In this document: one piece after another, positions 49,493 to 49,675 of the stretch
Layout: each line of letters starts with the position of its first letter
Position numbering within the stretch: the first letter of the stretch is position 1
Assembly: GCF_013122565.1 (NCBI RefSeq)
Contig: NZ_CP053258.1
Direction: 5' to 3' (one strand)
Source of the DNA: Escherichia coli
GTDB taxonomy: Bacteria; Pseudomonadota; Gammaproteobacteria; Enterobacterales; Enterobacteriaceae
Length of the DNA stretch: 64,000 nucleotides
Notes under the pieces: model-generated
Told to the model about the DNA's origin: nothing
Seen by the model: only the letters and a program-made list of their open reading frames with translations
Databases searched by the model: none
Translations under genes and position numbers: made by a program

Positions 49493-49675
49493 TATCTTTC
49501 CCTTTATATGGCGCAGTGTTGAATAATGGAATCAGCTATACGCCGGGCATCTGCCGGTAACAATCCAGATGTGCGTATTACATTGGTTTTCTTCAGATTA
49601 TGCGAGGCGCTTTCCAGAACGAAAGGAGAATTTCAGCGCCGACTCTTTTCTGAGGAGGCGGCGCTGGGACAGAGC

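What the first reader, a model, noticed from the sequence alone, without database searches (positions are those of the whole stretch)
49493..49675. gltF and the yhcADEF fimbrial genes appear to be absent between gltD and yhcG
Only 183 bp separate the gltD stop from the yhcG start. As I recall K-12, this interval holds gltF, a yhcA/yhcD/yhcE chaperone-usher cluster with an IS5 insertion, and yhcF. Together with the accC-yhdT island this marks the strain as non-K-12, and the gltBD operon here would lack its third gene.
Basis: partly seen in the sequence, partly recalled or inferred. Interest (0 to 1): 0.45.

Follow-up and report, generated by a model that had tools for sequence, protein, structure and literature searches.

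The report
Common E. coli gltD–yhcG junction, no fimbrial island
This strain has the usual E. coli arrangement, with the glutamate synthase genes next to yhcG; K-12 and its relatives are the exception, because they carry an optional fimbrial gene cluster (gltF-yhcADEF) at this spot, so the finding is correct but ordinary.

Summary
gltD (49676-51094, minus strand) and yhcG (48365-49492, minus strand) are separated by 183 bp. K-12 MG1655 has 7,210 bp there: gltF, yhcA, yhcD, yhcE::IS5 and yhcF. Homology to K-12 breaks 2 nt after the gltD stop and 128 nt upstream of the yhcG start. A 54-nt stretch with a GC hairpin stands where K-12 has 7,080 bp.

This is not an anomaly. The direct gltD-yhcG junction occurs in 3,140 of 5,426 complete E. 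coli genomes, including O157:H7 and O55:H7. gltF occurs in only 1,143. Another 947 have gltD next to nanQ, with neither the island nor yhcG.

The same 183-bp spacer is 93-98% identical in E. albertii and two other Escherichia lineages. Salmonella also has gltD next to a yhcG ortholog. Diverged alleles of the fimbrial island occupy the same site in other Escherichia strains, and an inverted relative sits beside gltD in Kluyvera and Enterobacter. The difference is therefore an old presence/absence polymorphism of an accessory beta-class chaperone-usher operon, already described as sporadic and phylogroup-A-restricted. It is not a recent deletion.

Side observation: yhcG-family genes carry a conserved in-frame 11-3-11 palindrome, and the local structural variants break at its copies.

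The parts
49676..51094 (-). gltD, glutamate synthase small subunit; its stop codon is at 49676-49678
   Evidence: 472-aa ORF. TIGR01318 at 897 bits. 96.5% nt identity to K-12 gltD.
51107..55675 (-). gltB, glutamate synthase large subunit, upstream in the same operon
   Evidence: 1,522-aa ORF. Annotated gltB in the matching stretch of strain EC1515.
49493..49675 (-). 183-bp gltD-yhcG intergenic spacer, the flagged interval
   Evidence: 96.2% identical in E. albertii NBRC 107761, 98.4% in Escherichia sp. E1V33 and 93.4% in lineage SCPM-O-B-8794. No Rfam family. No consensus promoter or terminator.
49620..49673 (-). 54-nt segment with no counterpart in K-12; it occupies the position of K-12's 7,080-bp gltF-yhcF island
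   Evidence: blastn breakpoints at window 49674 and 49619. No match of this segment inside the K-12 island at word size 7.
49634..49666 (-). GC-rich hairpin (CAGCGCCG...CGGCGCTG) 10 nt after the gltD stop; a candidate end of the gltBD transcript (inferred)
   Evidence: Predicted stem in the minimum-free-energy and centroid folds. Invariant in all four Escherichia lineages aligned. Fails the simple terminator scan because it has no T-run. The fold of the 86-nt stretch is not better than shuffles (z = -1.1).
49493..49619 (-). yhcG-proximal block, presumably the yhcG promoter and RBS; homologous to but strongly diverged from the K-12 allele
   Evidence: 73.4% identity to K-12 but 97.6% to E. albertii NBRC 107761. 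K-12's allele is closer (80.6%) to the allele linked to the island in another Escherichia lineage.
48365..49492 (-). yhcG, intact 375-aa PD-(D/E)xK nuclease (DUF1016 family)
   Evidence: Pfam DUF1016_N (E 1e-41) plus YhcG_C (E 3e-56). PADLOC candidate defence family PDC-S02, E 1e-135.
49087..49191 (-). three in-frame copies, 39 nt apart, of an 11-3-11 palindrome inside yhcG (49165-49189, 49126-49150, 49087-49111)
   Evidence: four matches in the whole 64-kb window against 0.02 expected.
48325..48349 (.). fourth copy of the palindrome (here called P4), between the convergent stops of yhcG and nanQ
   Evidence: The homologous copy in other strains is the right-hand breakpoint of the gltD-nanQ haplotype and of the E. 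albertii yhcG truncation.
47841..48305 (+). nanQ (yhcH), N-acetylneuraminate anomerase; the distal boundary of the variable interval
   Evidence: NF040884 at 236 bits.

Best explanation
The window carries the common island-less haplotype of a variable interval between gltD and nanQ. Its layout is gltBD, then a 54-nt spacer with a hairpin, then the yhcG upstream block, then intact yhcG, a palindrome and nanQ. K-12 and other phylogroup A strains carry the alternative haplotype. In that haplotype a 7.1-kb, 43% G+C beta-class chaperone-usher fimbrial operon (gltF-yhcADEF) lies between the gltD stop and the yhcG upstream block. Both haplotype classes predate E. coli: each occurs in more than one Escherichia species, and the flanking yhcG-upstream sequence sorts by haplotype class rather than by species. 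The two classes have presumably been moved among lineages by homologous recombination through the conserved gltBD and nan flanks. Glutamate synthase is unaffected, because gltF is a fimbrial-type DUF1120 subunit gene. In this strain gltBD transcription probably ends at the conserved hairpin 10 nt after gltD. What is shown: the coordinates, the breakpoints, the population frequencies, the presence of both classes in other species, and the allele sorting. What is inferred: the age and maintenance of the polymorphism, the terminator role of the hairpin, and the lack of any effect on nitrogen metabolism.
For: Breakpoints: window 49674 and 49619, with 54 nt in the window against 7,080 bp in K-12.

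Frequencies in 5,426 complete E. coli genomes:
- Direct gltD-yhcG junction in 3,140.
- gltF in 1,143, by megablast and equally by sensitive blastn. All copies are chromosomal, and 1,136 are at least 99% identical.
- gltD directly next to nanQ in 947.
- The whole nanQ-yhcG-gltD stretch is 99.8% identical in O157:H7 and O55:H7 genomes.

Island-less class in other species:
- A degenerate pattern spanning the gltD end, a 170-198-nt gap and the yhcG start hit the species representatives of E. albertii, Escherichia sp. E1V33 and lineage SCPM-O-B-8794. Their spacers are 93-98% identical to the window.
- Salmonella Senftenberg has gltD, 207 bp, then a yhcG ortholog at 78.7% aa identity.

Island class in other species:
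- A GltF allele at 78% identity occurs in an E. albertii strain (its gltD is 99.1% identical to NBRC 107761). A 61% allele occurs in another Escherichia lineage. Both are at the same site and in the same orientation as in K-12.
- A related operon sits beside gltD in Kluyvera and Enterobacter mori.

Allele sorting of the yhcG-upstream block: window against E. albertii NBRC 107761 97.6%, window against K-12 73.4%, K-12 against the other island-bearing lineage 80.6%.

Island composition: 43% G+C without IS5, against 56% for gltD.

GltF is 30% identical to YhcF (E 6e-26), and both are DUF1120 proteins.

Literature: yhc is a beta-class chaperone-usher locus found only in phylogroup A strains (PMC5216030). 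Yhc is described as sporadic and highly under-represented (PMC3559732).
Against: - The deep polarity is unresolved. Salmonella supports an old gltD-yhcG adjacency. Kluyvera and Enterobacter support an old fimbrial operon beside gltD, but inverted and without yhcG.
- The Salmonella spacer is only about 50% alignable to the window, so only the gene adjacency is comparable, not the spacer.
- The hairpin has no T-run, fails the terminator scan, and its fold is not better than shuffles.
- Only 64 kb of this genome was available, so a gltF copy elsewhere is excluded only indirectly. In all 1,143 genomes that have gltF it is chromosomal with a median of one copy, and the three haplotype counts sum to 5,230 of 5,426 with no excess.
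- The statement that gltF is dispensable for nitrogen regulation rests on my recollection of Goss et al. 2001 (J Bacteriol 183:6607; the citation was seen). The paper could not be opened.
Confidence: 0.85

Rival explanations
1. A recent deletion in this strain or its close lineage removed gltF-yhcADEF from a K-12-like ancestor.
For: The gene order is otherwise collinear with K-12 on both sides. Deletions bounded by the local palindromes do occur at this locus: the E. albertii yhcG truncation and the gltD-nanQ haplotype.
Against: The same junction, 97-100% identical, is in 3,140 genomes and in three other Escherichia species-level lineages. A simple deletion would not create a 54-nt segment that K-12 lacks. 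The adjoining yhcG-upstream block is 27% diverged from K-12 but 2.4% diverged from E. albertii.
Confidence: 0.03
2. The island-less state is ancestral, and the K-12 island is a recent horizontal insertion into phylogroup A from outside Escherichia.
For: The island has 43% G+C against 56% for gltD. gltF is at least 99% identical in 1,136 of the 1,143 genomes that carry it, and no intermediate alleles occur in E. coli. It is restricted to phylogroup A (PMC5216030). gltD-yhcG adjacency is seen in Salmonella and E. albertii.
Against: Diverged alleles of the whole operon occupy exactly the same site and orientation in E. albertii and in another Escherichia lineage. K-12's island-linked yhcG-upstream allele resembles the allele in that lineage (80.6%). 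No close GltF homolog is on any of 72,556 plasmids. This points to an old haplotype circulating within the genus rather than a recent foreign import. Phylogroup A may still have regained it by recombination from another Escherichia lineage.
Confidence: 0.12
3. The short spacer is an assembly or window artefact, with sequence collapsed or missing.
For: None beyond the general possibility.
Against: An identical sequence across the junction occurs in closed genomes from independent projects: EC1515 and PapRG-04-4 at 100%, O157:H7 strains at 99.8%.
Confidence: 0.01

Closest known systems
Yhc (beta-class) chaperone-usher fimbrial locus gltF-yhcADEF of E. coli K-12 (Nuccio and Baumler clade scheme; Korea et al. 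2010; Wurpel et al. 2013, PMC3559732; PMC5216030)
   Same: This is the element whose absence the finding describes. Its variable, phylogroup-A-restricted distribution is already published.
   Different: The window has no part of it. The published surveys used tens of genomes. Here the frequency is 1,143 of 5,426 complete genomes. Here too, diverged alleles were seen at the same site in E. albertii and another Escherichia lineage. I did not find that second point in the papers I read.
gltBD-yhcG-nanQ arrangement of E. coli O157:H7 and O55:H7 reference genomes
   Same: Same gene order, with 99.8% nucleotide identity over window 48280-49720. It is annotated gltD, yhcG and nanQ in RefSeq.
   Different: No structural difference. 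The window is closest (100%) to strains PapRG-04-4 and EC1515.
Deletions between short repeats or palindromes by slipped misalignment, and quasipalindrome template switching (general mechanisms, cited from my own knowledge)
   Same: Breakpoints of four local variants fall at or within copies of one 25-nt palindrome, each event leaving one (sometimes hybrid) copy. The arms co-vary with strict Watson-Crick pairing, as arm-to-arm copying would produce.
   Different: Here the palindrome lies in-frame inside a protein-coding gene and is kept at the same codon position in homologs from several phyla. A purely mutational process does not obviously explain that.
Rickettsia palindromic elements, which are repeats inserted in-frame in genes (cited from my own knowledge)
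   Same: Palindromic repeat units occur inside open reading frames, with variable copy number (2-3 units of 36-48 nt).
   Different: Rickettsia palindromic elements are 100-150 bp, are dispersed through many unrelated genes of one genome, and are lineage-specific. The yhcG palindrome is 25 nt, is confined to this gene and its flanks, and is family-wide across phyla.

Membership tests
Island-less gltD-yhcG haplotype of Escherichia | gltD stop and yhcG start about 183 bp apart, on the same strand | tested here: met
   Pattern match at window 49476-49696.
Island-less gltD-yhcG haplotype of Escherichia | Spacer homologous to that of other carriers, including the 54-nt hairpin segment | tested here: met
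   93-100% identity to E. coli ECSC054 and EC1515, E. albertii, E1V33 and SCPM-O-B-8794.
Island-less gltD-yhcG haplotype of Escherichia | No gltF or yhcADEF anywhere in the genome | tested here: inconclusive
   None in the 64-kb window. The rest of the genome is not available. In the collection gltF is single-copy and chromosomal wherever it is present.
Yhc beta-class chaperone-usher fimbrial operon | DUF1120 subunit genes, a PapD-like chaperone and an usher between gltD and yhcG/nanQ | tested here: not met
   tblastn of GltF, YhcA, YhcD and YhcF against the window gives no hit below E = 0.007. Only 183 bp are available at the site.
gltBDF operon (K-12 definition) | A third gene, gltF, co-oriented downstream of gltD | tested here: not met
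   The next co-oriented gene is yhcG. K-12's own layout was confirmed.
Rho-independent terminator (for the hairpin at 49634-49666) | GC-rich stem-loop immediately followed by a T-run | tested here: not met
   The stem is present, but the tail is AAATTCTCCTTTCG and the consensus scan finds no site. Function as a transcript end is not testable with these tools.
YhcG / DUF1016 PD-(D/E)xK nuclease family | DUF1016_N plus YhcG_C domains | tested here: met
   Pfam E 1e-41 and 3e-56. PADLOC PDC-S02 E 1e-135.
REP/BIME-type extragenic palindromes (for the 25-nt palindrome) | Many dispersed extragenic copies per genome | tested here: not met
   All four copies in the 64-kb window lie in or next to yhcG, and three are inside the coding sequence. 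The whole genome was not searched.
Programmed inversion switch (for the palindromes) | Both orientations of the segment between two sites found among genomes | tested here: not met
   A chimeric query mimicking inversion between an internal copy and P4 is covered at 80% or more in 0 of 4,434 matching genomes. The best coverage is 56%, which is the normal orientation.

The most novel reading that the evidence does not exclude
The 25-nt palindrome that marks the structural breakpoints at this locus may be a functional nucleic-acid element of the whole YhcG/DUF1016 nuclease family, a family listed as candidate phage-defence system PDC-S02. It is an in-frame 11-3-11 hairpin kept at one codon position from Escherichia to Bacteroidota, Acidobacteriota and cyanobacteria. 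Its arms co-vary with strict Watson-Crick pairing. It could be a DNA hairpin or cruciform that acts as a recombination site, a regulatory site or a site recognised by the nuclease itself. Under this reading, recombination between copies generates the gltD-nanQ haplotypes, including the loss of the fimbrial island together with yhcG.
Probability: 0.3. Interest if true: 0.55.

Novelty: already known. Interest (0 to 1): 0.13.

Why it matters
For the finding as given, very little. It shows that K-12 is a poor reference at this locus, and that "gltBDF" is a K-12-specific operon name for gltBD plus the first gene of an accessory fimbrial cluster.

It is a useful caution for annotation. Absence relative to K-12 here is the normal state of the species.

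The locus is a tidy example of an old, trans-species presence/absence polymorphism. The palindrome seen in passing could be worth a separate look, because conserved structured elements inside the coding sequence of a candidate defence nuclease are unusual.

Tried and rejected
- Known RNA in the spacer. Rfam at a permissive threshold over 48200-50000 gave only a chance-level miRNA-precursor hit (E 0.45) triggered by the yhcG palindromes.
- Promoter and terminator consensus scan of 49300-49900 found none.
- Remnant of the island in the 54-nt segment. blastn-short at word size 7 found nothing beyond the gltD end.
- Plasmid-borne source of gltF. Only two remote DUF1120 hits (28% identity) in 72,556 plasmids.
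- Diverged gltF copies hidden in other E. coli genomes. Sensitive blastn found exactly the same 1,143 genomes as megablast.
- Inversion or phase variation between the yhcG-internal palindromes and the downstream copy. 0 of 4,434 genomes, so rejected.
- The palindrome as a by-product of a conserved peptide. Synonymous-codon randomisation gives 5.5 of 11 paired positions against 10.6 observed, with p at or below 0.012 in each of 14 homologs, so rejected.
- The palindrome as a genome-wide REP-like repeat. It occurs only at yhcG within the 64-kb window.
- The 252-aa ORF at 49526-50284 (plus strand), antisense to gltD, has no family match and is treated as spurious.
- The 101-aa ORF annotated "transposase" in the fECg99.1-type variant has no Pfam or NCBIfam match. 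It was not pursued.
- Goss et al. 2001 could not be opened.
- The query (window 48280-49720) does not separate the island-less haplotype from K-12-like genomes, because yhcG alone gives more than 80% coverage. Its count of 3,347 was not used.

Full report
**1. Observation**

On the minus strand of the window, ORF 49676-51094 is gltD (472 aa, TIGR01318 at 897 bits). ORF 48365-49492 is yhcG (375 aa, Pfam DUF1016_N plus YhcG_C). They are separated by 49493-49675, exactly 183 bp. Upstream lies gltB (51107-55675). Downstream lie nanQ/yhcH (47841-48305, plus strand) and the nan operon.

K-12 MG1655 (NC_000913.3) has gltD, gltF, yhcA, yhcD, yhcE split by IS5R, yhcF and yhcG, with 7,210 bp between the gltD stop and the yhcG start.

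**2. Endpoints**

blastn of the window against K-12 gives two colinear blocks. One runs through gltD to 2 nt past its stop (window 49674). The other starts 128 nt upstream of the yhcG ATG (window 49619). Between them the window has 54 nt (49620-49673) and K-12 has 7,080 bp.

The 54 nt have no counterpart in the K-12 island, even at word size 7. They contain a GC hairpin at 49634-49666. The two states therefore differ by a replacement, not by a clean insertion or deletion.

The first 100 nt on the yhcG side are only about 71-73% identical to K-12. gltD is 96.5% identical, and most of yhcG is 95-100% identical.

**3. How common each arrangement is**

The counts below are out of 5,426 complete E. 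coli genomes.

| Arrangement | Genomes |
|---|---|
| Direct gltD-yhcG junction (783-nt query, at least 80% covered) | 3,140 |
| gltF present | 1,143 |
| gltD directly next to nanQ, with neither island nor yhcG | 947 |

- gltF was found in the same 1,143 genomes by megablast and by sensitive blastn. It is always chromosomal, and 1,136 copies are at least 99% identical.
- The three counts sum to 5,230. The remainder includes IS-rearranged versions.
- Within the first class, 726 genomes have the 3' part of yhcG replaced by a 470-bp single-copy segment.
- The window's full nanQ-yhcG-gltD stretch is 100% identical in strain PapRG-04-4, 99.9% in EC1515, and 99.8% in many O157:H7 and O55:H7 genomes.
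- The window itself has no homolog of GltF, YhcA, YhcD or YhcF.

**4. What the missing genes are**

GltF and YhcF are both DUF1120 proteins and are 30% identical. The literature treats gltF-yhcADEF as one of the twelve chaperone-usher operons of MG1655 (PMC8174762). It is the sole beta-class locus and was found only in phylogroup A strains (PMC5216030). Wurpel et al. call Yhc "sporadic" and "highly under-represented" (PMC3559732).

The K-12 island without IS5 is 43% G+C, against 56% for gltD.

The name "gltBDF operon" comes from early K-12 work (citations seen). From my own knowledge, Goss et al. 2001 found no role for gltF in nitrogen regulation. I could not open that paper.

**5. Polarity and age**

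A degenerate DNA pattern was scanned over one genome per species. It specified the gltD end, a 170-198-nt gap, then the yhcG start. It hit E. albertii NBRC 107761, Escherichia sp. E1V33 and a separate lineage labelled E. coli SCPM-O-B-8794. Their spacers are 96.2%, 98.4% and 93.4% identical to the window, and the hairpin is invariant. A Salmonella Senftenberg record has gltD, 207 bp, then a yhcG ortholog (78.7% aa identity), then codB. The island-less adjacency is therefore old.

The island is old too.
- GltF homologs of 78% and 61% identity lie in whole operons at the same site and in the same orientation.
- The 78% allele is in an E. albertii strain, whose gltD is 99.1% identical to NBRC 107761.
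- The 61% allele is in another Escherichia lineage, whose gltD is about 92-93% identical to all the others.
- A related operon (YhcD 56-57% identical) sits beside gltD in Kluyvera and Enterobacter mori, inverted and without yhcG.

The yhcG-upstream block sorts by haplotype class, not by species. Window against E. albertii NBRC 107761 is 97.6%, window against K-12 is 73.4%, and K-12 against the other island-bearing lineage is 80.6%.

I conclude that this is an old, trans-species presence/absence polymorphism, and that the window carries the commoner class. I could not decide which state came first at the root of the enterobacterial tree.

**6. The third haplotype and the palindromes**

The gltD-nanQ haplotype keeps K-12's first 40 nt after gltD (one mismatch). 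Those 40 nt include a 25-nt palindrome, ATTCGCCAGAC-NNN-GTCTGGCGAAT. At that palindrome it joins the sequence that follows a second copy located between yhcG and nanQ. It therefore differs from the K-12 type by the 8.3 kb between two palindrome copies. Deletion is the more likely direction, because the island class is the more widespread one.

The same palindrome occurs three times in-frame inside yhcG, 39 nt apart, and once after its stop. These are the only four matches in the 64-kb window, against 0.02 expected.

Other variants also break at copies:
- The E. albertii NBRC 107761 yhcG truncation has a hybrid copy at the junction.
- The 470-bp replacement ends at the outer edge of copy 3.
- An IS1 insertion sits at copy 3.
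- A decayed yhcG lies next to the 61% island allele.

Inversion between copies was not seen in any of 4,434 genomes.

**7. The palindrome is family-wide**

This is a side observation that I only partly followed up.

All ten YhcG homologs fetched at 58-79% aa identity have a perfect or near-perfect 11-3-11 palindrome at the same codon position, with different arm sequences. They come from Salmonella, Azotobacter, Ralstonia, Cupriavidus, Pseudomonas and Citrobacter plasmids, Granulicella, Diaphorobacter, Burkholderia and Leptolyngbya.

On 14 orthologous copies:
- 96.8% of cells are paired.
- Four of the 11 pairs show changes on both sides (23 cells). No shuffle out of 500 reached the observed number of such cells, the percentage paired or the covariation score; 29 of 500 reached four such pairs.
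- Sliding the partner collapses pairing to 20-49%.
- Only one G-U pair occurs.
- Randomising synonymous codons of the same peptides gives 5.5 of 11 paired positions, against 10.6 observed.

Homologs at 35-55% identity also show it. By position: Hymenobacter 11/11, E. kobei 10/11, A. junii 9/11 and Thiodictyon 8/11. P. phytofirmans and B. finegoldii each have two copies.

I found no mention of this in the searched papers on DUF1016/YhcG. Strict Watson-Crick pairing at variable positions argues for an intrastrand hairpin, or for arm-to-arm copying, rather than a dimer-binding site. I cannot tell whether it is functional or is maintained by template switching.

**8. Verdict**

The finding is real and correctly interpreted, but it describes the normal state of E. 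coli. The polymorphism is already in the literature and in reference annotations. Novelty is "already known" and interest is low. The most novel reading left open concerns the yhcG palindrome, not the absence of gltF.

Noticed in passing
window 49087-49191 and 48325-48349: A 25-nt 11-3-11 palindrome (ATTC..CAGAC-NNN-GTCTG..GAAT) occurs three times in-frame inside yhcG at 39-nt spacing. The copies encode EIRQTVSGE, GIPQTPSAE and KIWQTLSAK. It occurs once more just after the yhcG stop. These are the only four matches in the 64-kb window, against 0.02 expected.
   Followed up: partly
L012, L013, L016-L023, L033-L036, L014, L015 (YhcG homologs on plasmids and chromids): The palindrome sits at the same codon position in YhcG/DUF1016 homologs from Proteobacteria, Acidobacteriota, Cyanobacteriota and Bacteroidota, down to 35% aa identity. 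Its arms co-vary with strict Watson-Crick pairing: 96.8% of cells paired, and no shuffle out of 500 reaches the observed score. The peptide alone predicts 5.5 of 11 paired positions against 10.6 observed. I found no description of it in the papers searched.
   Followed up: partly
L005 10920-11030; L008 3400-3500; L011 2395-2430; L024 15700-15830; L003 7361: Structural variants of the gltD-nanQ interval break at palindrome copies. These are the gltD-nanQ haplotype (947 genomes), the E. albertii yhcG truncation with a hybrid copy, the 470-bp replacement, a decayed yhcG in another Escherichia lineage, and an IS1 insertion. Inversion between copies was tested and not found.
   Followed up: partly
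L011 1925-2394 (E. coli fECg99.1): In 726 E. coli genomes the 3' 722 nt of yhcG plus the downstream palindrome are replaced by a 470-bp segment. It is present once per genome. It encodes a 101-aa ORF that RefSeq calls 'transposase', but that ORF matches no Pfam or NCBIfam family.
   Followed up: partly
L028 (E. albertii, SRR15139179) and L024-L027 (another Escherichia lineage): Diverged alleles of the whole gltF-yhcADEF operon sit at the same site as in K-12. Identity to K-12 is mosaic across genes: GltF 78% and 61%, YhcD 82% and 67%, YhcE 59% and 77%, YhcF 68% and 86%. E. albertii is itself polymorphic for presence or absence.
   Followed up: partly
L029 (Kluyvera sp.) and L030 (Enterobacter mori): A related beta-type fimbrial operon lies between sspB and gltD, inverted relative to E. 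coli, with no nan genes or yhcG. Kluyvera has three tandem DUF1120 genes ahead of the chaperone.
   Followed up: no
window 49493-49619 against L001 9700-9827: The yhcG-upstream block is 73% identical between the window and K-12 but 97.6% identical between the window and E. albertii. K-12's allele is closest (80.6%) to the allele linked to the island in another Escherichia lineage. The alleles therefore sort by haplotype, not by species.
   Followed up: yes
window 48365-49492: YhcG matches the PADLOC candidate phage-defence family PDC-S02 (E 1e-135). Homologs sit between hsdM and hsdS, or directly after tyrosine integrases, on plasmids. The gltD-nanQ interval thus holds a candidate defence gene as well as the fimbrial island.
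   Followed up: no
L016 (NZ_LN868944.1, Salmonella Senftenberg NCTC10384 'plasmid 2'): This 728-kb record, labelled as a plasmid, carries gltD, a yhcG ortholog and codB. It looks like a piece of chromosome filed as a plasmid.
   Followed up: no
window 49526-50284 (+): A 252-aa ORF antisense to gltD, starting inside the flagged spacer. It has no NCBIfam match and is probably not a gene.
   Followed up: partly
window 49098-49178 (+): The only Rfam hit near the locus is a sub-threshold match to a microRNA-precursor model (mir-3913, 21 bits against a gathering score of 100, E 0.45). It lies on the yhcG palindrome repeats and is a chance consequence of the hairpins.
   Followed up: yes
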